This document shows positions 12,494 through 60,913 of a stretch of 60,913 nt of DNA, in pieces (positions within the stretch are counted from its first letter, which is position 1; each line of letters starts with the position of its first letter). The DNA lies in the NCBI GenBank assembly GCA_016210925.1, contig JACQTF010000179.1, forward strand, positions 1 through 60,913, in the 5' to 3' direction. The translations under genes were made by a program, and so were the position numbers. The notes under the pieces were generated by a model. That model did not search any database, was not told the DNA's origin, and saw nothing but the letters and a program-made list of their open reading frames with translations. Source of the DNA: Acidobacteriota bacterium. Lineage in GTDB: Bacteria > Acidobacteriota > UBA6911 > JACQTF01.

Positions 12494-13741
12494 TCAGTTG
12501 GGCACCAGGATCTCCTCTCTTTTGCTGTCGTAAGCGACCGCACCCGGGTTCCCGATCATCAGCGCAGGTACCCCTGAAGGCCCGCTGCGGATGGTGCGCA
12601 GAGGTGCTGCATCCCCCTCGGCTGTCAACCGATACACTGTGAGGGAGTGACTGCCAAAGTTAGAGACCCAGAGTTCGTTGTTTTTGCCATCCAAAAAGAC
12701 ACCGGTCGGATTCTTGAGCCCCGTTCTGGGGCCTTTCACCACACGCGCGGGGGCCACATTGCCTTCATCCGTTTCATGGAACACCAGGATCGAGTTCGTC
12801 ATGTCGTTCGCGACAAAAAGCTCGCCCCGCTCCACGTCCACAGCCAGACCTGTCGGCCAGTTCAACTGGGTCTTGGGTCCCTGGATCACACGAAGAGGAG
12901 CCGCATCGCCGCTGGCGTCCAGAGCGTGCACCGTGATGGACGGAGGTAAGATCCGGCCTGAGCCTGGAACCTCTCTCTCCAGAGGCCAGTTGGACTTCAG
13001 GCGCCGCGAGACTTCGGCTTCGGGCATCTTGGAGTGCACACTTCCGTAGTTCGTCACGAACATCAGATTCTTCTTCGTATCAATGGCGATCCCGTGCGGG
13101 TCCGCCAACCCGGTGCGATCCCCCTGAATCAGGCGAGCAGGTGTTTCCTCTCCGGAGGCCATCTTGCGGAACACGATGACCGCATTGGCGTGCTGCGAGG
13201 TCAGGTACATCTCCTGCTTGCCCTCGTCCACAGCGATTCCAAAGGTCCCGTGGGGAGTCTTGAGAGCGCGATCGGGCGCAACATTGCCCCTGGCGTTTCG
13301 GGAAAAAATGACCAGGGTGTCAACGGTGTCGTTGTTCACCGCGTAAACATCCCCGCTTTGGGGGTCCACATAAAGTCCGCACTGAAACTCAATCTTGGTT
13401 TTTGGTCCCCCAATGGCGCGTTTCGGTTCAGTCATGGCGGCCGTTGGAGGAGTGTTATCCAGTCTGTTGTAAAACAGGAGTTGGAACAGATTCTCGTCTG
13501 TGGCAACAACTTCGTCGCGCGCAATGTCTACAGCGACAGAACTGGGCGATGAGTAGCTATCGCGAATGACCCGCAACGGAGGTCGCTTTGCCGCGGCGGT
13601 TTTCGGGTCGACTGAACTCTGTGCTCCTCCTAAGAGAATGTTTCGGGCTGCTTCGGCGGATGACAAAATAAAAGCGACCGCCGCCAGCGCCACCAGGGTT
13701 CCCAGAACACCCCAGGCTCGTTTCAGTTTGTAAATTCTCAT
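12494..13741 (-). CDS. exported NHL/YVTN-like beta-propeller repeat protein, N-terminal portion
   Basis: Start trimmed to ATG 13741 after GGGAGG (MRIYKLKRAWGVLGTLVALAAVAFILSSAEA). Repeated units such as GNVAPARVVKGPRTGLKNPTGVFLD..NELWVSN. Ends at TGA 12494..12496. Confidence 0.75.
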   Translation of the reverse strand: MRIYKLKRAWGVLGTLVALAAVAFILSSAEAARNILLGGAQSSVDPKTAAAKRPPLRVIRDSYSSPSSVAVDIARDEVVATDENLFQLLFYNRLDNTPPTAAMTEPKRAIGGPKTKIEFQCGLYVDPQSGDVYAVNNDTVDTLVIFSRNARGNVAPDRALKTPHGTFGIAVDEGKQEMYLTSQHANAVIVFRKMASGEETPARLIQGDRTGLADPHGIAIDTKKNLMFVTNYGSVHSKMPEAEVSRRLKSNWPLEREVPGSGRILPPSITVHALDASGDAAPLRVIQGPKTQLNWPTGLAVDVERGELFVANDMTNSILVFHETDEGNVAPARVVKGPRTGLKNPTGVFLDGKNNELWVSNFGSHSLTVYRLTAEGDAAPLRTIRSGPSGVPALMIGNPGAVAYDSKREEILVPN

Positions 13742-14078
13742 GTTGACCTCCCTTTCCGGGGCTGATTTGCCTTCGCTCATTGGATTCGTCTTCCGAATCG
13801 CCACTCGGGTCTGAGATGAGACGTGGCGAGAATACTATAGTCGTCTTCCTTGCTTGGGTCTACTGTGGATTTGCCGCTGCCGAGCTCAAAAAAGCCTAAG
13901 ATCGGCTTCGTCGTGACGAACTTGGGCTTGGATGAAGCTCTTGAAGGGCAGCATTTCAGCATTTGCGGAAAATCCTTGACATCTCCATTCAGGGGATGGT
14001 AGCAACGTTCTCAATTCTGTTTGCGCGCGCAAGTGTTTTCGGCCGTGGGTAATGGAATGACGGATGGAGGTAGACCCT

Positions 14079-15794
14079 ATGCGACGACGTTGGATAGCAC
14101 TGTCCATGAGTTTGGCGGCGCTGCTGGGTTGTTCCGCGCAAAGGCAGGAAGCGGAATTCCAATCCAAGTACATGGCGCCCCGTTTTCCTTCCTATTTTAA
14201 AGACATAAACTCGGTGGAAGACCTGATGCCTTACGTGCGGACCCTGGTCCGGGCCAAGGTGGGCTTTCAGGGAAAAGGCCTGGGGGAGGCCGGGCCGGGT
14301 GACACGGTCGCGTTGATCGTCCCGTCGACGGCGGAGGATATGGTCATCGAGGCCATTCATCGCGCCTACGACGAGCGGAAGGTCAAAGCGGAGATCGTCT
14401 GGTATCACGACCTGGTGGGGGTCACTCGGGAGCAGGCGCTGGCCCTGGACAAGGCCAGGCGCCCGTACACGGCGGAAAAAGGCTTCATGGAAGCGGCCAA
14501 TTGGATCAACGGCGTCTTCGCGGATCGCAACGTGCCGAAGCAGTGGCTCAAAGAAAGAAGGCCCGATCTGTACAGTGAACTCTTCCCTCCCTCCTCTGAG
14601 CTCTCGAAGGAGCTGGAAGAAGTGGCCAACAAGATGGAGCGGCGCGAGTTTGCCAGAAAGCTGCGGGAGTATATCGAGCGTCATCCCAACGTCAGGGGCA
14701 TTTTCTGGGGCCAGGGAGGAAGTACCGGGCTTCGCCGGAGCCTGTACCCGCACGACAAGAAACTTTTGGGGCTCTTCACTTACACCAACCGCTACGAGGT
14801 GATGAGCAAGATTTCCTCTTTTCCGGGTGACGTGTGGGCCCTGGTCGAGGAGCGGACCATCGAGCCTCTGGGCTGGATAGACCGATTCGAGGCGACCGAT
14901 CCCGAAGGAACCCAGCTGGTGACCGACCTGACTGAGGATCAAGCCGACCGGTGGAACAGGGGCTCTTACCAGCGCGGCCACCTTTACATGTTTCCCAATC
15001 AGGCGACGGGCCGGTTCCCCTACTCCTTTGTGGAGTACCCCGCCCAGGAAAGCAAATGGGTCTCCCGTTCGCCCATGGCTCTGCCGAGCGGTGTGATTGC
15101 GGGCACTCACAGCGGCAGCGGCCTGATCCCCCGGATCGAAGTGCACTTCAAGAATGGTTACATCACGGACGTCAAGGGCGGGGGAGTTTACGGCGAAGCC
15201 TGGAGGGAGTTCCTGAAGTATCCCAAATTGAACGAGCTGACCTTCCCCTTCCACCAGGAGCGCGGCTTTTGGTACCTCTACGAGTGCGCGTGGGGCAGTC
15301 GCCCGAAGGATTTCCGCAATCCCTTCTATCTGGAAAGGGGCAGTATTGGACCGGAGCGGATGCGCGCCGGTGTGATTCACTGGGGCTTTGGCCTTCGGCT
15401 CTGGCATGATCCGGATAAGCCCGTCGAGTCGCCGAGCTGGATCAAGTTTTCGAAGGACAATAACACCCCCGACGACCACGGCTGGCATATCAAGACCTAC
15501 TTCAGCACGTACAAGGTGAGGGTACGTGGGACCGATAAGTGGCTGACCCTGATGGACGGCGGTCATATGACCGCGCTGGACAGTCCGGAGGTCCGCGCAC
15601 TCGCCTCCCGCTACGGGGACGCCGATGCAGTCCTGGCGGAAGAATGGATCCCGCACATTCCTGGGATTAACGTCCCCGGAAAATACGAAGACTATGCCCG
15701 GGATCCCTGGAAGACCGTCAGCGCGGTGTTCGAGCGAATTAAGAACGGAACTTATGAGTACTTCTACCCGCCGGTCGCTAAGAAAACCGGTTAG
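14079..15794 (+). CDS. lipoprotein of the uncharacterised exported family, paralogue 2
   Basis: ATG 14079 lies 8 nt after GGAGG. Lipobox LAALLGCS. Motifs are MAPRFPSYFK, ATDPEGTQL, AGVIHWGFG, GWHIKTYF and EEWIPHIPGINVPGKY. The 555-aa antisense ORF 13989..15656 is an artefact. Confidence 0.85.
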   Translation: MRRRWIALSMSLAALLGCSAQRQEAEFQSKYMAPRFPSYFKDINSVEDLMPYVRTLVRAKVGFQGKGLGEAGPGDTVALIVPSTAEDMVIEAIHRAYDERKVKAEIVWYHDLVGVTREQALALDKARRPYTAEKGFMEAANWINGVFADRNVPKQWLKERRPDLYSELFPPSSELSKELEEVANKMERREFARKLREYIERHPNVRGIFWGQGGSTGLRRSLYPHDKKLLGLFTYTNRYEVMSKISSFPGDVWALVEERTIEPLGWIDRFEATDPEGTQLVTDLTEDQADRWNRGSYQRGHLYMFPNQATGRFPYSFVEYPAQESKWVSRSPMALPSGVIAGTHSGSGLIPRIEVHFKNGYITDVKGGGVYGEAWREFLKYPKLNELTFPFHQERGFWYLYECAWGSRPKDFRNPFYLERGSIGPERMRAGVIHWGFGLRLWHDPDKPVESPSWIKFSKDNNTPDDHGWHIKTYFSTYKVRVRGTDKWLTLMDGGHMTALDSPEVRALASRYGDADAVLAEEWIPHIPGINVPGKYEDYARDPWKTVSAVFERIKNGTYEYFYPPVAKKTG

Positions 15795-15800
15795 GAGGCC

Positions 15801-17834
15801 TTAGCCACTACAAGAGGAATCTGTGGTTTTCAGTTTCTCCACGTCAACCCGCGCATCGTTATAACACGCTCCCCCACCGACCTCGTTGACATCTGCCGGG
15901 CAGAGCGCTGTGGAAGTACGACCGTTCATGGATGATTTCCGCCACGCCCCTTTGGGCAGAGAGACAACGCTTTCCCGAACGCGCTCGCTCACTCTGGCAC
16001 GACAGATGACTTCTCCAAGCCCATTGAACACCCGCACAGTATCTCCCTCAGCAATCCCCCTCGCCGAAGCATCGCGCGGGTGCAACGTGAGCCAGAGCTC
16101 CGGGAAGTTAAACTCACCCAACGTGCTGGTGATCATCTTTGAGGTGGCCGGACTGATCATGGCCAGCGGGAATCCGTCGCTTTTGACCGGACGATAGTGA
16201 AATGGCGACGACCCGAGCGCCGGCGGGGTCAGGTGAATTTTCCCGTCCGGGGTCTGTGGAAAGGCTGTTTTGAACTGTATTGGCGTGGGTCCGGGAAAGT
16301 CATAGGGTTGAGTTTCTCCTGCGGTAAAGATGCCCGCGCTGGCGGGACGGCCATGCAACGTGAGGGCATCAGCCACTTTTTGCATGGAGGTGTGTGTATC
16401 CCAGAAAAACGGTTCATCCTGCCAACCCATGGCGCGTCCTAATGCGGCAAATACCTCGCCATTTGATTTCGCCTCACCGAGGGCCGGAATCACCGGCTGC
16501 ACGCCACCCACCACATAGCTCCCGTAGGCGCGCCGAATGTCCTGATGCTCCAAGAAAGTTGTTGCCGGCAGGAGAATGTCGGCATATTTTGCCGTGTCGG
16601 TCATCACCTGCTCAAATACGACCGTGAACAAGTCTTCTCGTGCCAACCCGCGCAGAATCGCGTTTTGATGGGGCGCGGTGACCGCCGGATTGCAATTGTA
16701 AACGAACAGCCCTTTGATGGGCGGCTGGAGATCGCCGTTGAGCACCTCGCCCAGTTGCGTCATATTGATCATGCGCGTTGGCCAGGCATAGTCGCCAAAG
16801 ATCTTTGTCGTGTCCAATTTTGCCGCCCCGCTGTTGCTCAAGGTGTAGCCACCCCCGCGGACGCCGAACTTCCCCAACAGCGCAGGCATGGCCAGGATAG
16901 CAGCAATGGCTTGACCACCGTTGCGATTTCGCTCCAGCCCCCACCCACACCGGATCACCGCCGGAGTTGATTCGGCGTAGACCTCGGCCAGGATGCGGAT
17001 ATCCTGAGGCGCAACACGTGCTTCTTGGGCAGCCCGCTCCACCGGCCACGCATGAGCCTCCTCCAGCAGGGGTCCAAGACCGTCGGCGTGTTGGCGCAAA
17101 AAATCCCTATCAAGCCGGCCAGCTTCTTTCCAGATGCGGATCATCGCCAGAGCCACTGGTAGGTCGGCGCCAGGGAAAACCGGCACGTGCAGATCGACAT
17201 CGTGAGAAGAGAAATTTTTTAACGGATCCACTACGGCGACAAACGCACCATTCCTCTTGGCCTGGCGTAAAAACGGAACCAGGTGAATATTCGAGACCTT
17301 CGGGTTGGCTCCGCAAATCAGGATGAACTTCGCGTATCGATAGTCTTCAAACGCCACGCCGGGCATTTTGCCGTACATGCCCATCGCCACCTCGGTCGTG
17401 GGTGCAGCGCAAAGGGTTCTGGCCAATCGCGAAGCGCCGAGTCTGGCGAAGTAAAAAGCATCTATCCATCCGTCACTGAGCAGGCCATTGGAGCCGCCAT
17501 AATGATACGGCAAAATGGCTTCGCTACCCCACCCGCGGATGATTTCCCGGAACCGGCTGGTGATCTCAGCCATTGCTTCAACCCAGGAGATGCGCACAAA
17601 TTCTCCAGCCCCTTTCGGGCCACGGCGACGCATGGGATACAGAAGGCGATCCCCATGATAAACTCTCCGGGCGAACCGAGACACTTTATCGCAGATAAAC
17701 CCGTTGGTCGTCGGGTGGTCTTGCGCCCCACCGATGCGTTGAATCCTGCCATCGTCCACGACGACCTCAAGCGCACAGGTATCGGGGCAATCCATGACGC
17801 AGGTTGTGTGGACGATTTTCGCAGTCCTAATCAT
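15801..17834 (-). CDS. cytoplasmic molybdopterin (bis-MGD) oxidoreductase, DMSO-reductase superfamily
   Basis: N-terminal 4Fe-4S motif HTTCVMDCPDTCALEV. No Tat signal. 677 aa with typical MopB and C-terminal molybdopterin dinucleotide-binding regions. Substrate unknown. Confidence 0.85.
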   Translation of the reverse strand: MIRTAKIVHTTCVMDCPDTCALEVVVDDGRIQRIGGAQDHPTTNGFICDKVSRFARRVYHGDRLLYPMRRRGPKGAGEFVRISWVEAMAEITSRFREIIRGWGSEAILPYHYGGSNGLLSDGWIDAFYFARLGASRLARTLCAAPTTEVAMGMYGKMPGVAFEDYRYAKFILICGANPKVSNIHLVPFLRQAKRNGAFVAVVDPLKNFSSHDVDLHVPVFPGADLPVALAMIRIWKEAGRLDRDFLRQHADGLGPLLEEAHAWPVERAAQEARVAPQDIRILAEVYAESTPAVIRCGWGLERNRNGGQAIAAILAMPALLGKFGVRGGGYTLSNSGAAKLDTTKIFGDYAWPTRMINMTQLGEVLNGDLQPPIKGLFVYNCNPAVTAPHQNAILRGLAREDLFTVVFEQVMTDTAKYADILLPATTFLEHQDIRRAYGSYVVGGVQPVIPALGEAKSNGEVFAALGRAMGWQDEPFFWDTHTSMQKVADALTLHGRPASAGIFTAGETQPYDFPGPTPIQFKTAFPQTPDGKIHLTPPALGSSPFHYRPVKSDGFPLAMISPATSKMITSTLGEFNFPELWLTLHPRDASARGIAEGDTVRVFNGLGEVICRARVSERVRESVVSLPKGAWRKSSMNGRTSTALCPADVNEVGGGACYNDARVDVEKLKTTDSSCSG

Positions 17835-36191: not shown

Positions 36192-36346
36192 GGCCGTCGC
36201 CGAGGTGTTACGCTACCCTGCTCGGCTCGCCTCTTTACTTGCTTTTCTTGCGTGCGCTGGTCCATCATCTTAGAGGTAAAATGCGTCTGACTGTCGCTCT
36301 CGGAGCGATGAGCGATGGTCTGAAAAGGTTTCTTTGGGAGGATTCT

Positions 36347-39300
36347 ATGAACAGGCGGCTCAGTGGTCTACTCATTTTCATCGAGTTCATCCTGGTTCTT
36401 TGTTCCGTGTCCTCCATGCTCTTCGCCCAGAGGACGACTGGGACCATCTCAGGGGTGGTCAAGGACGAAAGCGGAGCCGTCGTGCCGGGCGCCGGGGTGG
36501 TGGTGAAGAATACGGAGACCGGCGCCGTGCGGTCCACGGTGAGCAATGACGAAGGCGCCTACGCCGCTCCCAACCTCGCCCCCGGCAGTTATGAAGTCTC
36601 GGCGGAAGTGCCCGGCTTCAAGACCTCCATTCGCAGAGGCATCAAGCTCAGCGTGGGCGGGTCCGCAGTCGTGGACATCACCTTGAACCTGGGCGAGATC
36701 ACGGAAGAAGTCGTCATCACCAGCGAGGCGCCTCTCGTCGAAACCACCACCTCGGGACTCTCGGGCCTGGTGGAGAGCCAGCAGATTCGAGATCTCCCCC
36801 TCAACGGCCGCGATTTTATTCAGCTCAGCACGTTGCACGAGGGAGTGGTCAGCGTACGCACGGGCGACAGCAACCAGAGCCGAGGTTTTGGCACCAAGCT
36901 CTCGATTGGGGGCGCCCGCCCCAGCCAGAACCGGTTCCTCCTCGATGGCAGCGACATCAACGATACCGCCGGTGCCACACCCGGCAGTGCCGCTGGCGTG
37001 ATGCTGGGCGTGGACACCCTCCGAGAGTTCCGGGTGCTGACCAATGCTTACTCCGCCGAGTTCGGCAAGAGCGCCGGCGGTGCCATCATCGCAGTGACCA
37101 AATCCGGCACCAACGAGTATCACGGAACGATTTTTGAATTTTTGCGCAATGACAATCTCGACGCCCGAAATTTCTTCGACCGGGGTCCTGCCCCGGAGTT
37201 CAAGCGAAACCAGTTCGGCTTTTCCTTCGGGGGACCGATTCTGAAGGAGAAAACCTTCTTCTTCGGATCCTATGAAGGCCTGCGCGAGCGTCTGGGAGTC
37301 ACCCGAATCGCCCGCGTTCCCGATGTGAGCGTGCGTACCAGCGCCGGGATCAGCCCTGTCATCCTTCCCTATCTCAACCTGTACCCCCTGCCGAATGGAC
37401 GGGCCTTCGGCGGGGGCATCGCCGAATTCCTCAGCTCCGCATCGGACGCCACTGATGAAGACTTCGCGGCTCTCCGGATCGACCACCGATTCAGCGGCGC
37501 CGACAGCCTCTTCGGGAGGTACTCTTTCGACGATGCTTCCCGGAACAGTCCGAACCCCTTACAGCTTTTTACCGGGAGTCAGACCAGCCGGTACCACTAT
37601 CTCACGATCGAAGAGACCCACATCTTCTCTCCACGGTTACTGAACACGGCGCGCTTCGCCTATAACACCACGCGGACCGGAGATGTCAGCATCACCCTCA
37701 AAGAGATCGACCGGTCCCTGTTTTTCGTCCCCTCACACCCTCAGTTTGGAGGCATCGCGGTGGCAGGGTTGACAGAGCTATCCGGCGGAGCAGCCGGGTT
37801 TCAACCGCGCATCTTCAACAACGTCAACGTCGATACGCTGGAGGCCGTCACCTACGACCGAGGTTCACATTCCTTGAAGATGGGTCTGGGCGTGACGCGC
37901 TACCACAACAACAATAATGCCCCCTTCCGGCCCGGAGGGCGCTTCCAATTTGATTCCCTGCAGGATCTGCTTCAGGCCCGGGCCAGCCAGCTCGAGTCCA
38001 TGGTGCCCGGCGTATCGGATACGGTGCGCCGGTGGCGCCAGTGGCTCGTCGGCATGTACCTTCAGGATGATTGGAAAGCCACACCTCATCTCACGTTCAA
38101 TCTGGGCCTGCGCTATGAGTTCATCACGGTCCCCGAGGAAGCGGACGGCAAGAGCGCCAACTTGCGGAACGTTCCTTTCAGCAAGGAAAGCACGGTGGGA
38201 CCTCCCTTCAAGAATCCTTCCTTGAGAAATTTTGCCCCCCGGGTGGGCGTCGCCTGGGCTCCGGGCGACGATGGGACGCTGGCCATCCGGGCCGGCGTGG
38301 GCGTCTTTTACGACCAGATTCTGTCCCAATACATGATTTTGGCCGGAAGCCGGGTGCCGCCTTTCTGGCTTCAGGCCAATCCCAGGAATCCGTCTTTCCC
38401 TGACTACATCAGAACTGTTTCGATCAGAGACGTGGATCCCAGGGTGGATACTCTTCCTTACGACATTGACCAGCCCTACCGCATCCAATACAACCTCTCC
38501 ATCGAGAAGCAGATCTCCCGCAACCTGGCCGTCCATACGGCGTACGTGGGCTCCCGGGGCGTTCACTTGCCGAGAGCCGTCGCCGACGCGAATGCAAATG
38601 TGCCCCAAGGCTTTCTTGACGGGCGGCTCTTTTGGCCGGCAACGCGGAGCCGGCTCAATCCGGTCTGGAGCACCATCCGATATCGTCCCACGGATGGAAA
38701 TTCCTTTTATCACTCCTGGGTGGCAGGTCTGACAAAAAGATTCAGTGGCGGGCTCCAATTTCAGGCGAGCTATACGTTCGGAAGAAGCGTCGATGACAGC
38801 TCCGCCGTCTTTAACGAAAATGAATTCACCAACACCATACCGGTCGCCAACATTTTTGACCGCACCGCGGAGAGAGGACTTTCCGACTTCCACGTCGCGC
38901 ACAACTTTGTCGCCAACTATCTCTGGGAACTGCCGTTCGGCCGGGACCGTAAATGGGGCCATCAGCTTTCCGGCGCGCCTGCCTGGTTCATCTCCGGATG
39001 GCAAATCTCGGGCATCTTGAACCTGTCCTCCGGGACTCCTTTCACGCCCGTTCTAAGCTTTGACCGGGCCAGGGCGGGCGCCGGTCGCGGCGGCGGCGGG
39101 CAGCGGCCTGATCTGGTCTCCGGGTCCAATAACCCCGTCCTGGGAGGGCCGGATCGCTACTTCGATGCTTCCGGGTTTGCCCTCCCGCCGGTCGGCGTTC
39201 TCGGCAACCTGGGAAGGAACACGGTGATGGGCCCGGGACTGGCGAGCTTCGACTTCAGCTTGTTCAAGAACTCCCGAGTGGGAGAAAATAAGAATCTTCA

Positions 39301-39469
39301 GTTCCGTGCCGAAATGTTCAACGTGTTCAACCGGGCCAACTTCACCATTCCCGCCGAGGCGGCGCGACAGGTATTTTCCGCCACCGGGCCCATCGCCGGC
39401 GCGGGGCGGATCACCGGTACCTTGACCACCTCGCGACAGATTCAGTTCGGACTGAAGTTCATTTTTTAA
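36347..39469 (+). CDS. TonB-dependent receptor with CarboxypepD_reg-like N-terminal domain
   Basis: Start trimmed to ATG 36347, 5 nt after GGAGG (MNRRLSGLLIFIEFILVLCSVSSMLFAQ). C-terminus is TSRQIQFGLKFIF. Confidence 0.9.
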   Translation: MNRRLSGLLIFIEFILVLCSVSSMLFAQRTTGTISGVVKDESGAVVPGAGVVVKNTETGAVRSTVSNDEGAYAAPNLAPGSYEVSAEVPGFKTSIRRGIKLSVGGSAVVDITLNLGEITEEVVITSEAPLVETTTSGLSGLVESQQIRDLPLNGRDFIQLSTLHEGVVSVRTGDSNQSRGFGTKLSIGGARPSQNRFLLDGSDINDTAGATPGSAAGVMLGVDTLREFRVLTNAYSAEFGKSAGGAIIAVTKSGTNEYHGTIFEFLRNDNLDARNFFDRGPAPEFKRNQFGFSFGGPILKEKTFFFGSYEGLRERLGVTRIARVPDVSVRTSAGISPVILPYLNLYPLPNGRAFGGGIAEFLSSASDATDEDFAALRIDHRFSGADSLFGRYSFDDASRNSPNPLQLFTGSQTSRYHYLTIEETHIFSPRLLNTARFAYNTTRTGDVSITLKEIDRSLFFVPSHPQFGGIAVAGLTELSGGAAGFQPRIFNNVNVDTLEAVTYDRGSHSLKMGLGVTRYHNNNNAPFRPGGRFQFDSLQDLLQARASQLESMVPGVSDTVRRWRQWLVGMYLQDDWKATPHLTFNLGLRYEFITVPEEADGKSANLRNVPFSKESTVGPPFKNPSLRNFAPRVGVAWAPGDDGTLAIRAGVGVFYDQILSQYMILAGSRVPPFWLQANPRNPSFPDYIRTVSIRDVDPRVDTLPYDIDQPYRIQYNLSIEKQISRNLAVHTAYVGSRGVHLPRAVADANANVPQGFLDGRLFWPATRSRLNPVWSTIRYRPTDGNSFYHSWVAGLTKRFSGGLQFQASYTFGRSVDDSSAVFNENEFTNTIPVANIFDRTAERGLSDFHVAHNFVANYLWELPFGRDRKWGHQLSGAPAWFISGWQISGILNLSSGTPFTPVLSFDRARAGAGRGGGGQRPDLVSGSNNPVLGGPDRYFDASGFALPPVGVLGNLGRNTVMGPGLASFDFSLFKNSRVGENKNLQFRAEMFNVFNRANFTIPAEAARQVFSATGPIAGAGRITGTLTTSRQIQFGLKFIF

Positions 39470-49198: not shown

Positions 49199-49330
49199 CT
49201 ACAGCGTAATGACCTGATCCACACCCACCTTGCCCAGCGCCGCGTAAAGATCGGGAAAACAGCCGATTTGTGCCCCATCAATGAGATTCTTATCTATTTC
49301 TCGCTCGTAAGCGCACTGGTCACAAGCCAT
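49199..49330 (-). CDS. 43-codon CxxC mini-ORF with glutaredoxin-like ends
   Basis: MACDQCAYEREIDKNLIDGAQIGCFPDLYAALGKVGVDQVITL. CDQC and LIDGAQIGCFPDLYAAL resemble the Grx CPYC and FIxGxxIGGxDDLxAL motifs, but the middle is missing. Overlaps the IscU-like stop by 11 nt. Confidence 0.3.
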   Translation of the reverse strand: MACDQCAYEREIDKNLIDGAQIGCFPDLYAALGKVGVDQVITL

Positions 49331-49637
49331 AGCAGTGCATCTTCTCGGGCGGAATCGTGCCGAGAGCGTCGGAAAGCTCTTGCTCCGTCACGGACAGAGC
49401 ATCTTCCACGTCCTTGCCTTGGACCATTTCCGTGAGCGCGCTGGAACACGCCACGGAGGTGATGCAACCCTGTGTTTTGAATTTCACCTCCTGAATCCGG
49501 CCGTCTTCCACGCTCAAGGTGAGGAGGATGCGGATACTCCAGGGATTGTCTTGCTCCAGGTAAGAGCGGTTGGGCTGATCGACAACTCCAAGATTGCGTG
49601 GATGATGGAAATGGTCCAAAACGGGGCTGCGGAACAT
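49320..49637 (-). CDS. IscU/NifU N-terminal-like protein (atypical, first Cys ligand absent)
   Basis: MFRSPVLDHFHHPRNLGVV..., FKTQGCITSVACSSALTEMVQGK and PPEKMHC match IscU motifs. The NPxCGD motif reads NPWSIR. Confidence 0.7.
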   Translation of the reverse strand: MFRSPVLDHFHHPRNLGVVDQPNRSYLEQDNPWSIRILLTLSVEDGRIQEVKFKTQGCITSVACSSALTEMVQGKDVEDALSVTEQELSDALGTIPPEKMHCYGL

Positions 49638-49719: not shown

Positions 49720-50196
49720 TCACCGTTTCGGAATCTTGAATTCCGCCACCTTCAGTTCAAGCGGATCGCCGGAATCATCGATGGTGCCAAGGATCCAGAT
49801 CGGATGGCCCGAGGGGACCTTTGGAGAATCTACCAGGAGAAGCTTATCCTTGCCGGCAACGAAGAATCGCTTCGATCCCTCTTCCTGGACACGCCCGCGG
49901 GCGGCAATTTGGAACCGGACAATCTCAACCTCCGCTCTTGCCACGGCAGCGCGAATGTCCTCCGGTTGGAAGCTGGTTCCCGGCTCATAGGTGATCTGCA
50001 CGGTCTGCTTTTGCAGGCTAATGGAAACATCGGCGACACCGTCCAGGCGTCGTAGGGCGACCTCCATGATCGCCGCGCAGGCCGCTCAGGTGATTCCTCT
50101 TGCATCGGCCAGCACCCTTTCCACCTGAGCCAGTGCCGGTGTGCTCGCCGCCGGTGCCAGTAGGGCCAGAAGTAACAACCGCGTCAGGCGCTTCAT
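49720..50196 (-). CDS. periplasmic HMA/MerP-like protein with TGA at the first Cys of the CxxC metal site (candidate selenoprotein)
   Basis: ATG 50196: MKRLTRLLLLALLAPAASTPALAQVERVLADARGIT-TGA-AACAAIMEVALRRLDGVADVSISLQKQTVQITYEPG... The TGA is at 50086..50088. The ORF track sees only 49720..50067. Confidence 0.7.
50056..50074 (-). promoter_or_regulatory. SECIS-like hairpin downstream of the HMA-protein TGA
   Basis: RNA GGCGAU-CAUGGAG-GUCGCC has a 6-bp stem (one G-U pair) and a 7-nt loop with GG. It starts 11 nt after the UGA. Confidence 0.4.
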
Positions 50197-50233: not shown

Positions 50234-50554
50234 TTAACGATAGCGGAACCAAAGCGTCATCCACGCGCTGAGAACCAACAGGTTTACCCCAATGCTCGCC
50301 CCCAGAATTGCCTTCATGCCCCTGGTCCGAAGAGAGGGAGGACGGCGATAGACGAGCGAACCCTGGTAGGCGAGTGCGCCCAGCGCTACCCCGATAAACA
50401 CCGGCTGCAAACGTTCCAGCCAGAAGAGGCAAGTGACGTTGAGGAGCGAAAAGAGGCCAAGTCCTGCCAGGACTTGCGGAAGCACTCATCAGCTCGGCGT
50501 GAGGAGGGCAGCCGCAATCGCCAGCAGTCCCATGCGTTTCGGATCCGATTTCAT
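50234..50554 (-). CDS. MerT-like membrane protein with tandem in-frame TGA-TGA at the vicinal Cys-Cys position (candidate di-selenocysteine protein)
   Basis: ATG 50554: MKSDPKRMGLLAIAAALLTPS-TGA-TGA-VLPQVLAGLGLFSLL...LERLQPVFIGVALGALAYQGSLVYRR... TGA codons are at 50489..50491 and 50486..50488. The ORF track sees only 50234..50485. Confidence 0.7.
50458..50476 (-). promoter_or_regulatory. SECIS-like hairpin downstream of the MerT-like TGA-TGA
   Basis: RNA CAAGUCC-UGGCA-GGACUUG has a perfect 7-bp stem and a 5-nt loop containing GG. It starts 9 nt after the second UGA. Confidence 0.5.
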
Positions 50555-50594
50555 GTGACCCGACTACCACTATACGGACCGGCCACTCCACCTG

Positions 50595-52106
50595 TCAAGG
50601 CTGGTTACGCTGGTTGACCATCCGGAACGCGGCTTTTACCCGGGGAACGACGAAGGGTAGAAGGATCAGAACGAGCGCCGAGAGGAGAAAGGCGCCCGAG
50701 AGGGGGCGCCAGAGAAAGATCATCAGGCTTCCCCGGGAGAGCAGGAGGGACTGCCGGAGGGATTCCTCCGCCATGCGGCCCAGGACGAAAGCCAGCAGGA
50801 GGGGGACCGGGTCGTACTGGAACTTTTTCATGAGGTAGCCCACCACGCCGAAGGCCAGCATGGTGATGATGTCCCAGATGTTGCCCGACACGCTGTAAGC
50901 GCCGATGACGCAAAACAGCAGGATCAACGGGAAAAGAATGCCGTAGGGAACCTTGAGGAGCTGGACCCATAGTCCGATCAGGGGGAGGTTCAGGACCAGG
51001 AGCATGGCGTTGCCGACGTACATGCTGGTGATGACGCCCCAGAAGATCTCCGGATGCTCCTTCATCAAGAGGGGGCCCGGCTGAACCCCGTGAACCAGAA
51101 AGGCTCCCAGCAGCACGGCCATGACCACGTTGGGGGGAATGCCCAGGGTCAGCAGCGGGATCATGGATCCTGCCGTGGCGGCGTTGTTGGCCGATTCCGG
51201 CCCGGCGACTCCCTCGATGGCGCCCGCGCCGAACTTCTCGGGGTGTTTGGAGATGCGCCGCTCGACCCCGTAGGAGATGAAGGACGGGATGATCGTGCCC
51301 ATCCCGGGGAGGATTCCCAGAAAGAAGCCCAACAGGCTTCCCCGGGCGACGGGGCCGGCGGAATCCTTCCAGTCCTGCCGGGTGGGCAGCAGGCCTTTGA
51401 TCCGGGTCTCGAAGACTCCCTGCTGGAGGCCTTGCTCGATGTTGAGGAGGACCTCTGCGACGCCGAACAGGCCCATGATGAGAGGCACCAGCCCCAACCC
51501 GTCCATCAGCGTGACACTGCGGAACGTGAAGCGCGGTGTGCCCACGATGGGGTCCAGCCCGACGGTGCCCAGAAACAACCCCAGAATGGCCATGGCCGCG
51601 GCCTTGAGCTTCGAGCCGCGCGCCAGGAAGGTCACCATGGTGAAACCCAGTATCAGGAGGCCGAAGATCTCCGGAGGCCCGAATCGGAGGGCGATGGAGG
51701 CGAGGGGAGGCGCCAGCAACATGATTCCCACCACGCCGAAGGTCCCGGCGATGAAGGAGCCGAAGGCTGCAATCCCAAGGGCCGGGCCCGCCCGGCCCCG
51801 GCGCGCCATCTGGTGACCATCCAGACACGTCACGACGGAAGCAGCCTCGCCGGGGACGTTGACCAGGATGGAGGTGGTGGAACCTCCGTACATGGCCCCG
51901 TAGTAGATGCCCGCCAGCATGATGAGGGAGGTGGTGGCGCTCATCGTGTAGGTGACCGGAAAGAGGAGGGACATGGTCACCACAGACCCGATGCCGGGCA
52001 GGACGCCCACCAGCGTTCCGATCAAGACGCCCGCGAAGCACGCCGCCAGGTTGGTAGGCTCTAGGCTCACGGAAAAGCCGTAAAGTACGCTCTGGACGAG
52101 GTCCAT
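50595..52106 (-). CDS. tctA: tripartite tricarboxylate transporter large permease TctA
   Basis: About 500-aa polytopic protein, [20 protein letters not shown]... Start trimmed to ATG 52106, downstream of the tctB stop. The same-strand overlapping 478-aa ORF is an artefact. Confidence 0.9.
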
Positions 52107-59706: not shown

Positions 59707-60913
59707 TCAGAACAGCAGCTTGAGCCCAAATTGGATTTGCCGCGAAGTACCGGCCGTTTGGGTAATTATTCCTGCCGCGGAAAGTGGGCTCTCGACATCC
59801 TGACGACCTGCGTAAACGCTTCGCTGGGGGGCGCTAAAATTCGGCCGGTTCAGGATGTTGAAGAATTCCCCACGGAACTCCAGCTTGCCACTCTCGCCCA
59901 GGAACTTCAGCGGAGTATCCTTTGCCAGCGAGAAGTCGAAACTGGCGAAACCAGGGGCTCGGAGAATGTTCCGACCTGCCGTCCCCAAAAATCCAGCGGG
60001 TTGGATTGCAAAGGCACACGGATCAAAATACAGCTCTGGCCCGCCCAACTTGCGGCCTGCTGGGACTCCTAAGCAGCCGGAGGTAACGCCTCGGGTGATG
60101 TTATCGTTGTGGCGACCGGCTACCAAATCTGGCCGGTCAGCTTGCGCCCCCGCCACTCTCGAGCGGGAGCGATTGGTCGTGAGGTTCGGGGTAAATGGAT
60201 AACCAGTATTCGTACTCAGAATGCCGCTCACCCACCAGCCGTTTAACAGCGTGCCTGGAGCGCCGCTTCGCGAAACTCCCGGCAAGCGATAGATTGCATT
60301 GAACCGCCAGTTGTGGCGGATGTCGAAGCCAGCCGGTCCCTTATCCACCTTGCGGTTGGTCGGATCGGTGCCCGTGTTCTGGTCAGCGGTGTCGTCGCTT
60401 CCGAGCTGACCTTGTGTTTCATCAATTATTTTCGACCATGTGTAGGAACTCTGAAATTGCAGTCCGTGGCTCAAACGCTTGACCAGACCCCACTGCAACG
60501 AGTTGTACCAGGAGTTTCCTGCTGCTGTTTTGAGTTCCATTGTGTCCCAGTTAGGATTGGTCCGCGATTCGCGACCGGTCCAGAACTGCCGGCCATCCGG
60601 AAGGATCTCCGGCACGGTGGGGTTTCCTTCTTTGGTTTGAATGATATTGAGGCCACGAGAACCTGCGTAAGCGACCGTCGAAACCATATTGAAGGGCAAC
60701 TGCCGCTCCACCGTCAGGTTGTACTGGAGCAAGTGAGGCTGCTGGAGGCCATAGTCTATGAGGCGAATCGATTTACCGACAGCCCCCGATGGGAATACGA
60801 GTGGGAGAGTCAACCCCGGAGGGCTCACCACCGTGCTGAGGCTAGCGAAGGGCGGCATGCCATTGGCGACCACAAGGAAAGAACTGCCGAGGTTACCAAG
60901 GTCATACAGCAGG
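59707..60913 (-). CDS. TonB-dependent receptor, C-terminal part (gene continues beyond the right edge)
   Basis: The C-terminus TSRQIQFGLKLLF and barrel motifs align with the other TBDRs. The frame stays open to the window end. Confidence 0.85.
   Translation of the reverse strand, partial: LLYDLGNLGSSFLVVANGMPPFASLSTVVSPPGLTLPLVFPSGAVGKSIRLIDYGLQQPHLLQYNLTVERQLPFNMVSTVAYAGSRGLNIIQTKEGNPTVPEILPDGRQFWTGRESRTNPNWDTMELKTAAGNSWYNSLQWGLVKRLSHGLQFQSSYTWSKIIDETQGQLGSDDTADQNTGTDPTNRKVDKGPAGFDIRHNWRFNAIYRLPGVSRSGAPGTLLNGWWVSGILSTNTGYPFTPNLTTNRSRSRVAGAQADRPDLVAGRHNDNITRGVTSGCLGVPAGRKLGGPELYFDPCAFAIQPAGFLGTAGRNILRAPGFASFDFSLAKDTPLKFLGESGKLEFRGEFFNILNRPNFSAPQRSVYAGRQDVESPLSAAGIITQTAGTSRQIQFGLKLLF

What the first reader, a model, noticed from the sequence alone, without database searches (positions are those of the whole stretch)
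50234..50554. MerT-like membrane protein with two consecutive in-frame TGA codons where MerT has its vicinal Cys-Cys pair
Seen in sequence: minus-strand translation from ATG 50554 gives MKSDPKRMGLLAIAAALLTPS, then TGA (50489..50491), TGA (50486..50488), then VLPQVLAGLGLFSLLNVTCLFWLERLQPVFIGVALGALAYQGSLVYRR...WFRYR. The supplied ORF track reports only the part after the second TGA, as a GTG start abutting the stops.
Established knowledge, from my recollection of Tn501/Tn21 MerT: ...LAAILAS(A/T)CCLGPLVL(I/V)ALGFSGAW...LEPYRP(I/L)FIGAALVALFF..RIYRP. The first-helix Cys-Cys captures Hg(II).
The window protein aligns on both sides of the stops (S-xx-VLPQVLAGLG versus T-CC-LGPLVLVALG; LERLQPVFIGVALGALAY versus LEPYRPLFIGAALVALFF; VYRR versus IYRP). 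The two TGA codons therefore fall exactly on the CC pair.
Nine nt after the second TGA there is a perfect 7-bp hairpin, CAAGUCC-UGGCA-GGACUUG, with GG in the loop. That is the geometry expected for a bacterial SECIS element.
Two independent TGC-to-TGA changes at exactly the functional pair are unlikely as random decay. A Sec-Sec dyad in a transporter helix would be very unusual, and I know of no characterised example.
Basis: partly seen in the sequence, partly recalled or inferred. Interest (0 to 1): 0.92.

Follow-up and report, generated by a model that had tools for sequence, protein, structure and literature searches.

The report
MerT-like membrane protein with Sec-Sec pair
A small soil-bacterial membrane protein related to the mercury transporter MerT almost certainly carries two adjacent selenocysteines, encoded by UGA-UGA and served by one RNA hairpin, where MerT has its metal-binding Cys-Cys pair; no inventory I could search lists this arrangement, and databases cut the gene short.

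Summary
Minus-strand ORF 50554..50234 has TGA-TGA at 50491..50486, followed 9 nt later by the hairpin CAAGUCC-UGGCA-GGACUUG.

It is not decay and not two genes:
- All 82 related loci, and two more divergent ones, keep TGATGA in frame.
- They also keep a protein-conserved 21-codon leader and an almost invariant hairpin.
- Synonymous variation collapses only over the hairpin.
- Real terminators of the same gene are mostly TAA or TAG.
- Three distant relatives have TGC/TGT-TGC (Cys-Cys) there and lack the hairpin.
- A profile comparison puts the dyad exactly on MerT's Cys-Cys.

The downstream gene (50196..49720) is a secreted HMA/MerP-like protein with its own UGA (50088..50086) at the first Cys of CxxC. 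Across loci it alternates UxxC (with a SECIS hairpin) and CxxC (without one).

In a related genome, tRNA-Sec, selB and selA flank the module. TGA is the commonest normal stop in the window.

MerT-family selenoproteins are already known, but with one Sec (CU or C/SxxU). A 2026 inventory of 119 families lists no adjacent-Sec motif.

Verdict: a real, conserved two-gene, three-Sec module, and a new variant of a known kind. Metal transport is inferred, not shown.

The parts
50569..50598 (-). Sigma-70-like promoter TTGACA-N18-TATAGT. Its -35 box overlaps the tctA stop codon, and the -10 box ends 14 nt before the ATG.
   Evidence: Scanner match of 11/12 positions, against 0.3 expected in shuffles. 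The same TTGACA-N17/18-TATA(G/T)(T/A) lies 7-18 nt upstream of the leader ATG in many related loci.
50234..50554 (-). Complete MerT-like gene of 106 codons including two UGA (Sec22, Sec23), ending in TAA.
   Evidence: 50 of 61 unique conceptual orthologues are exactly 106 aa. Pfam MerT hits 28/30 members. hhalign gives 93.5% against a canonical MerT.
50492..50554 (-). Codons 1-21: a short basic N-terminus plus the first half of membrane helix 1 (MKSDPKRMGLLAIAAALLTPS).
   Evidence: Conserved as M-x-x-DPKR-x-G-(L/M)-L-S-I-x-A-A-L-L-x-P-S, using 2-6 synonymous codons per position.
50486..50491 (-). UGA-UGA dyad, read as Sec22-Sec23.
   Evidence: TGATGA in 82/82 loci and in L097/L098. It aligns with CC of P0134, P0138, L096 and canonical MerT. 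True terminators of this gene are TAA 44, TAG 19, TGA 11.
50458..50476 (-). SECIS hairpin CAAGUCC-UGGCA-GGACUUG, 16 nt from the second UGA to the loop and 19 nt from the first.
   Evidence: Synonymous entropy is 0-0.36 bits over its codons, against 1.2-2.3 bits in the flanks. It fits the published bSECIS consensus quoted in PMC13188914.
50448..50457 (-). Conserved T-rich tract following the hairpin (GCCTCTTTTC). Its role is unexplained.
   Evidence: Flagged as terminator-like. Phe13 is TTT in 56/59, against about 32% TTT at other Phe codons. GC3 is 0.48 against 0.73. 61/73 unique genes pass the T-tract rule.
50429..50431 (-). Codon for Cys42, a near-invariant Cys between helices 1 and 2.
   Evidence: Invariant in A1 and A5 and at least 90% conserved in A4. 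It is missing in the divergent L097/L098.
49720..50196 (-). Partner gene of 158 codons: signal-peptide-like N-terminus, an HMA domain with Sec37 in G-I-T-U-A-A-C, and a roughly 70-aa C-terminal extension. It ends in TGA.
   Evidence: Pfam HMA scores 37.9 bits, above the cut-off of 24.8. A homologue follows the MerT-like gene in 83 loci.
50086..50088 (-). UGA read as Sec37, at the first Cys of the HMA CxxC motif.
   Evidence: 35 unique loci have TGA-x-x-TGY and 30 have TGY-x-x-TGY at this position.
50056..50074 (-). Partner SECIS hairpin GGCGAUC-AUGGA-GGUCGCC, starting 11 nt after the UGA.
   Evidence: A hairpin with a GG loop is present in all 25 unique TGA forms. In 23 it is 7 bp at 11 nt, with compensatory stem variants. 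The hairpin is absent from all 26 Cys forms.

Best explanation
Window 50554..50234 (minus strand) is one gene for a 106-residue inner-membrane protein distantly homologous to MerT. Both residues of the vicinal pair in the first membrane helix are selenocysteine.

How it is made (inferred from comparative evidence):
- The pair is encoded by UGA-UGA.
- A single SelB-binding hairpin just downstream recodes both codons. It lies 19 nt from the first UGA and 16 nt from the second, so both fall inside the 16-37 nt bSECIS range.
- After the first insertion the ribosome moves 3 nt. A second SelB-GTP-Sec-tRNA complex must then use the same hairpin.

The module (shown):
- The gene forms a self-contained two-gene unit with its own promoter.
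- The downstream gene (50196..49720) encodes a secreted HMA/MerP-like protein whose first metal-binding Cys is also Sec, with its own SECIS.
- That makes three Sec residues per module.

Proposed function (by analogy with the MerP to MerT relay, not shown):
- The periplasmic U/CxxC protein captures a soft metal ion, such as Hg(II) or Cu(I).
- It passes the ion by ligand exchange to the Sec-Sec site at a break in helix 1.
- That site passes the ion inward.
- Sec in place of Cys would give fully ionised ligands that exchange faster.

Shown: gene structure, conservation, Sec/Cys alternation, the SECIS tracking UGA, and MerT homology. Inferred: actual Sec insertion at both codons, membrane topology, the metal and the direction of transport.
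For: Dyad and reading frame
- TGATGA is in frame in 82/82 loci and 73/73 unique genes. It is also present in the most divergent members, L097 and L098.
- TGA is used at 146/146 dyad codons. The same genes terminate on TAA 44, TAG 19 and TGA 11.
- The leader is conserved as protein with synonymous variation.
- Nearly all of the 136 database homologues are truncated at exactly 83 aa. P0003 and P0077 read 'PSWWVLPQ', meaning TGA was read as Trp by the caller.

Sec/Cys pairing
- The Cys forms P0134 and P0138, and the P0135 gene read through its upstream ORF in L096, have TGC/TGT-TGC at the dyad. None has the hairpin.
- One Cys form keeps the same gene neighbourhood: a TonB-type outer-membrane protein, then the MerT-like gene, then the 161-aa HMA protein.

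SECIS
- The stem is 100% paired in 60 distinct sequences, with U-A to C-G and G-U variants.
- Codon entropy collapses only over the hairpin.
- The hairpin meets the published bSECIS rules.

Internal control
- In the partner gene, the SECIS hairpin co-occurs strictly with TGA, in 25/25 TGA forms against 0/26 Cys forms.

Machinery
- tRNA-Sec, selB and selA flank the module in L002/L003.
- TGA is the commonest normal stop in the window, at 12/23 ORFs.

Homology and start site
- hhalign gives 93.5% with the dyad on MerT's CC. Pfam MerT hits 28/30 members.
- The promoter lies directly upstream of the leader ATG.
- The MerP Cys33/36 to MerT Cys24/25 relay is the accepted model (PMC5715351).
Against: - There is no direct evidence of selenium incorporation.
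- No Sec machinery lies inside the 60.9-kb window, so it rests on related genomes.
- The hairpin's stability is not above shuffled controls, and no Rfam model matches it.
- Covariation is thin: one compensatory pair and two wobble types, because the stem is almost invariant.
- When the codon after the dyad is Val it is always GTG (61/61). That is also what a conserved alternative start codon would look like.
- Two successive SelB-dependent events at adjacent codons should be inefficient. From memory, E. coli work found a strict UGA-to-SECIS spacing.
- On function, there is no MerA, no cytoplasmic Cys pair, and only occasional MerR. The window protein scores below the Pfam MerT cut-off (27.4 against 32.9 bits).
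Confidence: 0.8

Rival explanations
1. Mixed or partial decoding. Only one of the two UGAs is read as Sec through SelB, and the other is read by a near-cognate tRNA (Trp or Cys). Alternatively the product is heterogeneous: U-U, U-W, U-C and truncated forms.
For: One hairpin cannot sit at the ideal distance from both codons. The GG of the loop is 20 nt from the first UGA, identical to the partner gene's geometry, but only 17 nt from the second. Sec insertion competes with RF2 (general knowledge).
Against: Both codons are TGA in 146/146 cases, and both are Cys in the Cys forms. If one position were habitually read as Trp or Cys, TGG or TGC should appear there in some lineages. No CU or UC intermediate was seen. 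Both spacings, 16 and 19 nt, lie within the published 16-37 nt range.
Confidence: 0.08
2. Two separate cistrons. A 21-codon leader peptide ends in a tandem stop, and an 83-aa protein is re-initiated at the abutting GTG by translational coupling. The hairpin would act as a coupling or regulatory structure.
For: Gene callers report the 83-aa GTG ORF. GTG is the only Val codon used at that position, 61/61. ATG, CTG or GTG occupies it in most loci.
Against: - The codon is GCG, GCA or ATC in about 7 unique loci.
- An 83-aa product would begin in the middle of a membrane helix.
- MerT homology runs through the stops, with CC on the dyad.
- The Cys forms are continuous ORFs with the same leader.
- A tandem terminator would not be TGA in 146/146 cases when real terminators are 85% TAA or TAG.
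- In the partner gene the same kind of hairpin tracks TGA against TGC.
Confidence: 0.04
3. The gene structure is the same but the function differs. The Sec-Sec dyad would be a membrane-embedded redox centre (a vicinal diselenide/diselenol) that relays reducing equivalents to the periplasmic U/CxxC partner, as in CcdA/DsbD, rather than a metal-translocation site.
For: No MerA and no cytoplasmic Cys pair is present. A thioredoxin-like gene lies nearby in L003. U/CxxC motifs are typical of redox selenoproteins (PMC13188914).
Against: - The partner is an HMA-fold protein. Its best matches are MerP, CopZ and the UxxU metal-binding family, not a thioredoxin fold.
- The membrane protein is homologous to MerT.
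- Some loci pair the module with a TonB-type outer-membrane receptor and a second, TAT-signal HMA protein. That layout looks like a metal-uptake route.
Confidence: 0.12
4. The gene is a pseudogene or carries a sequencing artefact, or TGA is reassigned as a sense codon in this organism (genetic code 4 or 25).
For: Two gene calls translate the dyad as WW.
Against: The feature is conserved across 80+ independent metagenome and MAG contigs, with purifying selection on both sides. TGA terminates 12 of 23 well-supported ORFs in the window, including tctA and the partner gene.
Confidence: 0.01

Closest known systems
MerT mercuric ion transporter (Tn501/Tn21; Pfam PF02411)
   Same: It is a small multi-helix inner-membrane protein with a vicinal pair in the middle of helix 1. 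That pair aligns residue for residue with the dyad here. It is encoded next to a periplasmic HMA protein, MerP. The accepted relay runs from the MerP CxxC to the MerT CC (PMC5715351).
   Different: - The pair here is Sec-Sec, not Cys-Cys.
- The cytoplasmic Cys76/Cys82 pair is absent, and a near-invariant Cys42 sits between helices 1 and 2 instead.
- No MerA is present, and MerR appears only occasionally.
- Homology covers helices 1-2 only.
- The window protein scores below Pfam's cut-off.
- The family is a compact separate clade: 36 clusters at 50% identity among 1.84 billion proteins.
Known MerT-family selenoproteins: 'putative mercuric transport protein' (C/SxxU, 1 Sec, ABB16073.1), the CU-motif MerT selenoproteins such as WP_250634603.1, and NCBIfam NF045683 'MerT/CopZ fusion-like heavy metal transport selenoprotein'
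   Same: These are MerT-related membrane proteins that use Sec as a metal ligand. They establish that Sec in a MerT-type transporter is a known kind (PMC13188914 Table 1; preprint 10.1101/2022.07.06.499078).
   Different: They are described with a single Sec (CU or C/SxxU), whereas both vicinal positions are Sec here. This protein is not fused to its HMA partner. It scores 17 bits against NF045683's cut-off of 375. No NCBIfam model reaches its cut-off on it.
UxxU metal-binding (seleno)protein NF041115, and MerP/CopZ (for the partner gene)
   Same: The partner has an HMA fold with Sec in the metal-binding motif. NF041115 is its best NCBIfam hit (45 bits), followed by MerP at 39.5 bits.
   Different: The motif is UxxC, alternating with CxxC across loci, rather than UxxU. 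The scores are below the cut-offs of 95 and 92.55 bits. The partner has a signal peptide and a roughly 70-residue C-terminal extension, giving 158-161 aa against about 74-92.
Bacterial SECIS consensus (bSECISearch model; E. coli fdhF as prototype)
   Same: The hairpin lies inside the coding sequence directly after UGA. It has a 7-8 bp stem, a 3-5 nt loop with GG in the pattern N1-G-G-N-N2, 16-19 nt from UGA to the loop, and an MFE of -8.3 to -9.2 kcal/mol.
   Different: One hairpin must serve two adjacent UGA codons. It is followed by a conserved U-rich tract that the partner's SECIS lacks. No lower stem is conserved.
Multi-Sec proteins served by one SECIS (eukaryotic SELENOP, archaeal VhuD/FrhD) and bacterial UxxU or UxxxxU selenoproteins
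   Same: More than one UGA in a single mRNA is recoded. The bacterial UxxU families show that closely spaced UGAs can be decoded (PMC13188914 Table 1).
   Different: In eukaryotes and archaea the SECIS is in the 3' UTR and acts at a distance. In the listed bacterial families the Sec residues are at least 3 residues apart. No entry among the 119 listed families or subfamilies has adjacent Sec residues.

Membership tests
Bacterial selenoprotein gene (SelB/SECIS-dependent UGA recoding) | The in-frame UGA aligns with Cys in homologues (a Sec/Cys pair). | tested here: met
   Both UGAs align with CC in P0134, P0138, L096 and canonical MerT. The partner gene has 35 UxxC and 30 CxxC loci.
Bacterial selenoprotein gene (SelB/SECIS-dependent UGA recoding) | [quoted passage not shown] | tested here: met
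   The stem is 7 bp and the loop is U-GG-C-A. Spacing is 19 nt from the first UGA and 16 nt from the second. MFE is -8.3 or -9.2 kcal/mol (rules from PMC13188914). The partner loop AUGGA has its GG at positions 3-4, which departs slightly from the G-position rule.
Bacterial selenoprotein gene (SelB/SECIS-dependent UGA recoding) | Protein-level conservation on both sides of the UGA, and RNA-level conservation of the hairpin. | tested here: met
Bacterial selenoprotein gene (SelB/SECIS-dependent UGA recoding) | selA, selB, selC and selD are present in the same genome. | tested here: inconclusive
   None was found in the 60.9-kb window. The rest of the genome is not available. In the related L002/L003, tRNA-Sec, selB and selA surround the module. 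selD was not looked for.
Bacterial selenoprotein gene (SelB/SECIS-dependent UGA recoding) | Selenium is demonstrably incorporated into the polypeptide. | not testable with these tools
   This needs 75Se labelling or mass spectrometry.
MerT (PF02411 / NF010314) | Profile score at or above the curated cut-off. | tested here: not met
   The window protein with CC substituted scores 27.4 bits against 32.9 for Pfam, and 28.9 against 150 for NF010314. Homology is nevertheless supported: 28/30 members hit PF02411 with a best E-value of 9.2e-9, and hhalign gives 93.5%.
MerT (PF02411 / NF010314) | A vicinal thiol pair sits in the first transmembrane helix. | tested here: met
   It is present as Sec-Sec at the aligned positions.
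MerT (PF02411 / NF010314) | A second Cys pair (Cys76/Cys82) lies on the cytoplasmic loop and hands Hg(II) to MerA. | tested here: not met
   There is no Cys in the loop RRPPSLRTRGMK. The only other conserved Cys is Cys42.
MerT (PF02411 / NF010314) | The gene sits in a mer operon with merR, merP and merA. | tested here: not met
   Only an HMA partner is constant, in 83 loci. MerR is found near 2 UU loci. No reductase appears in any annotated neighbourhood. The window neighbours are tctCBA and a NifU-like gene.
MerT/CopZ fusion-like heavy metal transport selenoprotein (NF045683) | A single polypeptide fuses MerT-like and CopZ-like parts, and the score reaches the cut-off. | tested here: not met
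   Here there are two separate genes. The scores are 17.1 and 19.5 bits against a cut-off of 375.
HMA domain (PF00403), for the partner gene | Profile score at or above the cut-off, with a CxxC-type motif in the first loop. | tested here: met
   It scores 37.9 bits against a cut-off of 24.8. The motif is G-I-T-U-A-A-C.
UxxU metal-binding (seleno)protein (NF041115), for the partner gene | A UxxU motif and a score at or above the cut-off. | tested here: not met
   The motif is UxxC and the score is 45 bits against a cut-off of 95.

The most novel reading that the evidence does not exclude
The hairpin could do two jobs. It would be the SECIS that programmes two consecutive Sec insertions. Together with its conserved U-rich tail, it would also act as an intrinsic-terminator-like attenuator. 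When SelB-Sec-tRNA is scarce, the ribosome stalls or terminates at UGA-UGA 9-12 nt upstream, leaving the hairpin free to form and abort transcription. Expression of the three-Sec operon would then be coupled to selenium supply. The partner gene's SECIS lacks the U tract, which fits a control point placed only at the start of the operon.
Probability: 0.1. Interest if true: 0.85.

Novelty: new variant of a known kind. Interest (0 to 1): 0.72.

Why it matters
1. Recoding mechanism. Bacterial Sec insertion is thought to need a hairpin at a set distance from each UGA. A conserved natural UGA-UGA served by one hairpin means the SelB/SECIS system tolerates a 3-nt shift and immediate re-use. This can be tested with a simple reporter. 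It also bears on engineering proteins with vicinal Sec or diselenide sites in bacteria.

2. Chemistry. A membrane-embedded vicinal diselenol(ate) would be a ligand set not yet described for a metal-translocation or redox site.

3. Annotation. More than 130 database entries of this family are truncated to 83 aa and named 'hypothetical'. No NCBIfam model captures them, so a family model with two Sec positions is needed. About half of the partner genes are also split by their UGA.

4. Ecology. The module is widespread in soil metagenomes. The few source-named homologues are mostly Acidobacteria/Terriglobia MAGs, plus one labelled Deltaproteobacteria. This links selenium availability to the handling of soft metals, possibly mercury or copper, in soils.

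Tried and rejected
- Genome-contig scan with the single protein.
- Rfam at gathering and at a permissive threshold. There was no SECIS match, which says little because Rfam's SECIS models are narrow.
- Thermodynamic significance of both hairpin regions. The z-scores of -0.65 and -0.21 are not above chance, so the case rests on comparative data.
- Extended or lower SECIS stem. RNAalifold finds only the apical hairpin.
- Sequence search of the PDB with the family profile. No hit.
- AlphaFold model of P0003. Mean pLDDT is 82.9, with a helix break at the dyad. It was built with Trp at the dyad positions, so local geometry is only indicative. The Foldseek search of the PDB gave nothing below E = 3.
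- Search for CU or UC intermediates in 85 UU loci and 3 Cys-form loci. None was found.
- Search for MerA. No usable MerA query could be extracted from L001. I relied on the Pfam annotations of neighbouring genes, none of which is a reductase.
- Sec machinery in the window. No tRNA and no selA/selB, and the Pfam scan of 20 large ORFs found none.
- Literature searches for tandem, adjacent or vicinal Sec, or for UGAUGA. Nothing relevant turned up. The primary paper behind the 'double selenoprotein' families is not in the library, so an earlier mention of a UU MerT cannot be fully excluded.
- Reassigned genetic code. Rejected, because TGA ends 12/23 ORFs.
- Pseudogene. Rejected.
Full report
**1. 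The observation**

On the minus strand an ATG at 50554 opens a frame that runs to TAA at 50236..50234. It is interrupted only by TGA 50491..50489 and TGA 50488..50486. The mechanical ORF list shows just the 83-aa part, starting at the GTG that abuts the second TGA.

Nine nt after the second TGA lies CAAGTCC (50476..50470), TGGCA (50469..50465) and GGACTTG (50464..50458). This folds as a 7-bp stem with a 5-nt loop (-8.3 kcal/mol) or an 8-bp stem with a GGC triloop (-9.2 kcal/mol). The finding is literally correct.

The fold alone is not above chance for this G+C-rich region (z = -0.65). Everything therefore depends on comparative evidence.

**2. It is one gene, and the dyad is conserved**

A protein search with CC substituted for the stops found 136 homologues. 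Nearly all were called at exactly 83 aa, so they are truncated at the same point. Two full-length calls read '...LTPSWWVLPQVLAGLG...', meaning the caller translated TGA-TGA as Trp-Trp.

I fetched DNA for 8 loci by exact protein look-up and for 80 loci from a metagenome scan. Every one of the 82 loci with enough upstream sequence has TGATGA directly before the V/A/I/M/L-LPQVLAGLG codons. So do the two most divergent members found later, L097 and L098.

Among 73 unique genes:
- Both dyad codons are TGA in 73/73.
- The 21 upstream codons are conserved as protein (M-x-x-DPKR-x-G-L/M-L-S-I-x-A-A-L-L-x-P-S). Each conserved position uses 2-6 synonymous codons, so that frame is translated and under purifying selection.
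- The true stop is always in register.
- 50 of 61 unique conceptual proteins are exactly 106 aa.

The genuine terminators of these genes are TAA 44, TAG 19 and TGA 11. A tandem terminator that is TGA 146 times out of 146 is therefore not credible.

The codon after the dyad is usually GTG. It is GCG, GCA or ATC in about seven unique loci, where an 83-aa protein could not initiate.

A near-consensus promoter (TTGACA-N18-TATAGT, 50598..50569, 11/12 matches against 0.3 expected) lies just upstream of the leader ATG. The same arrangement, 7-18 nt from the ATG, recurs in many loci. Transcription and translation therefore start at the leader, not at the GTG.

One caveat applies. The scan patterns (LPQVLAGLG, WL[EQ][RK]LQP[VL]F) select the UU clade, so '82/82' describes that clade only.

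**3. Cys forms exist and lack the hairpin**

An exhaustive profile search of 1.84 billion representatives returned only 36 clusters, so this is a compact family. Three of them are Cys forms:
- P0134: '...ALLTPSCCIGLPQL...'
- P0138: '...ALLIPSCCIGLPQL...'
- P0135, whose upstream ORF in L096 reads '...ALLIPSCCVGVPQVL...'

Their DNA reads TGC-TGC or TGT-TGC, and the CAAGUCC...GGACUUG hairpin is absent.

The P0138 locus keeps the gene order seen in several UU loci: a TonB-type outer-membrane barrel, then the MerT-like gene, then a 161-aa HMA protein. No CU or UC intermediate was seen.

In UU forms the peptide PQVLAGLG, which is the translation of the hairpin, is almost frozen. In Cys forms the same segment varies. 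The RNA evidently constrains the protein.

**4. The hairpin behaves as a SECIS**
- Codon entropy within the majority amino acid is 0-0.36 bits at the six hairpin codons (CAA GTC CTG GCA GGA CTT). It is 1.2-2.3 bits for Leu, Pro, Gly and Ala codons on either side.
- In 60 distinct sequences the 7 pairs are 100% paired, against 5-58% when the 3' arm is slid. There is one compensatory change (U-A to C-G) and two G-U variants.
- RNAalifold finds the same helix and nothing beyond it.
- This element has 7 bp and loop U-GG-C-A. It lies 19 nt from the first UGA and 16 nt from the second, and folds at -8.3 or -9.2 kcal/mol.

**5. The downstream gene is a second selenoprotein and an internal control**

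ATG 50196 to TGA 49722..49720 encodes a signal-peptide-like N-terminus and an HMA domain (Pfam 37.9 bits against a cut-off of 24.8). Its best NCBIfam hits are the UxxU metal-binding (seleno)protein and MerP, both below cut-off. An in-frame TGA (50088..50086) falls on the first Cys of GMTCxxC, giving G-I-T-U-A-A-C.

Across unique loci the motif is TGA-x-x-TGY in 35 and TGY-x-x-TGY in 30.

All 25 unique TGA versions carry a hairpin soon after the UGA with a GG-containing loop. In 23 of them it is 7 bp, starts 11 nt after the UGA and has loop AUGGA. Stem variants include GGCGGUC/GAUCGCU, CGCGGUC/GACCGCG and GGCAACC/GGUUGCC. None of the 26 Cys versions has this hairpin.

In the window the hairpin is GGCGAUC-AUGGA-GGUCGCC at 50074..50056 (-10.2 kcal/mol). 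So in these organisms and this operon, UGA plus hairpin alternates with Cys and no hairpin. That is the standard signature of Sec.

The partner's UGA lies 20 nt from the loop GG. The same is true of the first UGA of the dyad, while the second is 17 nt away. The hairpin therefore looks positioned for the first UGA, and the second is read 3 nt closer.

**6. Machinery and genetic code**

The window has no tRNA gene and no selA or selB. Its 20 largest ORFs are unrelated to Sec decoding: TonB-type barrels, amidohydrolases, AcrB, molybdoenzymes, UbiD and transporters.

In L002/L003 (contigs of 2.9 Mb and 294 kb) the orthologous gene pair is followed directly by selB and selA, and tRNA-Sec (anticodon TCA) lies 8.6 kb upstream. 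selA is also near the gene in L060.

TGA is the commonest ordinary stop in the window, ending 12 of 23 well-supported ORFs, including tctA and the partner gene. A reassigned code is excluded.

**7. What the protein is**
- With CC substituted, Pfam MerT aligns residues 13-71 to profile positions 15-72. It scores 27.4 bits (cut-off 32.9), against 15.1 bits for the 83-aa part.
- 28 of 30 family members hit PF02411, with a best E-value of 9.2e-9.
- hhalign of the family against a canonical MerT (L001, Aromatoleum evansii) gives 93.5% probability and E = 2.2e-7 over helices 1-2. 'ALLTPS-CC-VLPQVL' lies on 'AILAST-CC-LGPLLL'.
- An AlphaFold model (pLDDT 82.9) has helices 5-17, 24-70 and 78-105 with an unwound stretch at 18-23, that is at P-S-U-U. 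It was built on a sequence with Trp at the dyad, so it is only indicative.
- By the positive-inside rule (my inference), the basic N-terminus and the loop RRPPSLRTRGMK face the cytoplasm. The near-invariant Cys42 would then face the periplasm.
- MerT's cytoplasmic Cys76/Cys82 pair is absent.
- The only universal neighbour is the HMA partner, in 83 loci. TonB-type receptors, MerR, selAB, tctA and nifU-like genes recur only sporadically. No MerA-type reductase appears in any annotated neighbourhood.

**8. Mechanism**

*Shown.* A two-gene transcription unit with three conserved UGA codons, each at a metal-ligand Cys position, and two SECIS hairpins.

*Inferred.*
- SelB-GTP-Sec-tRNA bound to the first hairpin decodes UGA1.
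- The ribosome translocates 3 nt, and a second SelB complex uses the same hairpin for UGA2.
- The product is a 106-aa protein with a Sec-Sec site at a break in helix 1.

By analogy with the accepted relay from MerP Cys33/36 to MerT Cys24/25 (PMC5715351), the secreted U/CxxC protein would capture a soft metal ion. It would hand the ion to the dyad, possibly through Cys42. Release to the cytoplasm would then occur without a MerT-type second pair.

Selenolates are ionised at neutral pH and exchange ligands faster than thiolates (general chemistry, my knowledge). That could be the advantage. The metal is unknown. A redox-relay function cannot be excluded.

**9. Comparison with what is known**

Sec in MerT-type proteins is already established:
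- The 'putative mercuric transport protein' family (C/SxxU, one Sec).
- 'A small group of MerT family selenoproteins' with a CU motif.
- NCBIfam NF045683, a MerT/CopZ fusion-like selenoprotein.

The most complete inventory I could read (May 2026, 119 families or subfamilies, giving the number of Sec per family) lists UxxU, UxxxxU and CU motifs. It has no family with adjacent Sec residues. Full-text searches for tandem or adjacent Sec found nothing relevant.

No NCBIfam model reaches its cut-off on either protein. All named database entries are 'hypothetical' or 'uncharacterized membrane protein'.

I therefore rate this a new variant of a known kind. The primary paper behind some recent 'double selenoprotein' families is not in the library, so prior mention cannot be fully excluded.

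**10. Unexplained**
- When the codon after the dyad is Val it is always GTG (61/61).
- The first hairpin is followed by a conserved T-rich tract. Phe13 is TTT in 56/59, against about 32% at other Phe codons. GC3 is 0.48 against 0.73. 61/73 genes satisfy a terminator-like rule. The partner's SECIS has no such tract.

This tract could keep the 3' flank unstructured for a hairpin that must work at two ribosome positions. It could instead form a selenium-sensing attenuator. Neither was tested.

**11. Verdict**

Confidence that this is a genuine Sec-Sec selenoprotein gene is about 0.8, and about 0.5 that it moves a soft metal ion. Interest is 0.72. The arrangement is conserved and widespread, and it raises a testable question about how one SECIS serves adjacent UGA codons. 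It is also currently mis-annotated everywhere. However, it sits inside a protein and selenoprotein class that is already known.

Noticed in passing
window 49720..50196 (-), UGA at 50086..50088, hairpin 50056..50074: The gene just downstream of the finding is itself a selenoprotein candidate. It is a secreted HMA/MerP-like protein with UGA at the first Cys of CxxC and its own SECIS. Across loci it alternates between UxxC with the hairpin and CxxC without it.
   Followed up: yes
window 50448..50457 (-) and the same position in L002-L098: A conserved T-rich tract follows the SECIS hairpin of the MerT-like gene, with TTT strongly preferred at Phe13 and low GC3 at codons +11 to +16. Together with the hairpin it meets a terminator-like rule in 61/73 unique genes. 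The partner gene's SECIS has no such tract.
   Followed up: partly
window 50483..50485 (-): When the codon right after the dyad encodes Val it is always GTG (61/61), although GTC, GTA and GTT are synonymous. This could reflect the 3' context of UGA or a fallback start codon.
   Followed up: partly
window 50569..50598 (-); many loci of L002-L089: A near-consensus promoter TTGACA-N17/18-TATA(G/T)(T/A) sits only 7-18 nt upstream of the leader ATG, giving a nearly leaderless mRNA. The spacer motif ...CGG-YTCG-TATA... is conserved. In the window the -35 box overlaps the tctA stop codon.
   Followed up: partly
L002 and L003: 1289..1383 (+), 10001..10778 (+), 10785..14091 (-): In a related genome (contigs of 2.9 Mb and 294 kb) the UU MerT-like/HMA pair sits inside a Sec-machinery neighbourhood. 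tRNA-Sec lies 8.6 kb upstream, and selB and selA follow immediately downstream. A MerR-family gene and thioredoxin-like genes lie in between.
   Followed up: partly
L004-L009 (2363..5815), L093-L095 (263..3610), also L054, L073-L076: A TonB-dependent-type outer-membrane barrel (CarboxypepD_reg + OMP_b-brl_4) lies directly upstream of the module in several UU loci and in a Cys-form locus. The Cys-form locus L093 also has a TAT-signal HMA protein and a 271-aa unknown protein. This hints at a two-membrane metal-uptake route.
   Followed up: partly
window 49320..49637 (-): A NifU/IscU-like ORF (NifU_N, 95.6 bits) follows the module. It reads 'NPWSIR' where, from my memory of IscU, 'NPxCGD' is expected, so it seems to lack the first cluster-ligand Cys. 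It also ends about 20 residues early ('...HCYGL*'). A homologue is also near the module in L064.
   Followed up: no
window 15801..17834 (-): A molybdopterin oxidoreductase with an N-terminal Fe4S4 domain (677 aa, continuous ORF). This enzyme class includes the commonest bacterial selenoprotein, FdhA. No in-frame TGA was noticed, but its Sec/Cys position was not examined.
   Followed up: no
window 4725..7856 (-), 36239..39469 (+), 59707..60873 (-): Several TonB-type outer-membrane barrels (CarboxypepD_reg + OMP_b-brl_4) are present, a type I associate from memory with Acidobacteria. Together with the source names of homologues (Acidobacteria, Terriglobia, Bryobacteraceae), they suggest the window comes from an Acidobacteriota genome with 59.8% G+C.
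   Followed up: partly
P0124, P0127, P0148 (database proteins): P0124 and P0127 join a Ser/Thr-kinase-like N-terminus to the part after the dyad at '...RRTVA|LPQVLAGLG', so they are probably assembly chimeras. P0148 reads 'RRCCPVDDCCLN' across the dyad region, which looks like a frameshifted reading of AALLLPS-TGA-TGA-VLPQV.
   Followed up: no
L093 5070..5100 (approx.): The Cys-Cys form P0138 has a different strong hairpin (UUGCCGCAA-CUGU-UUGCGGCA) at roughly the position where the UU forms carry their SECIS. It has no GG in the loop. It could be chance or a relic.
   Followed up: no
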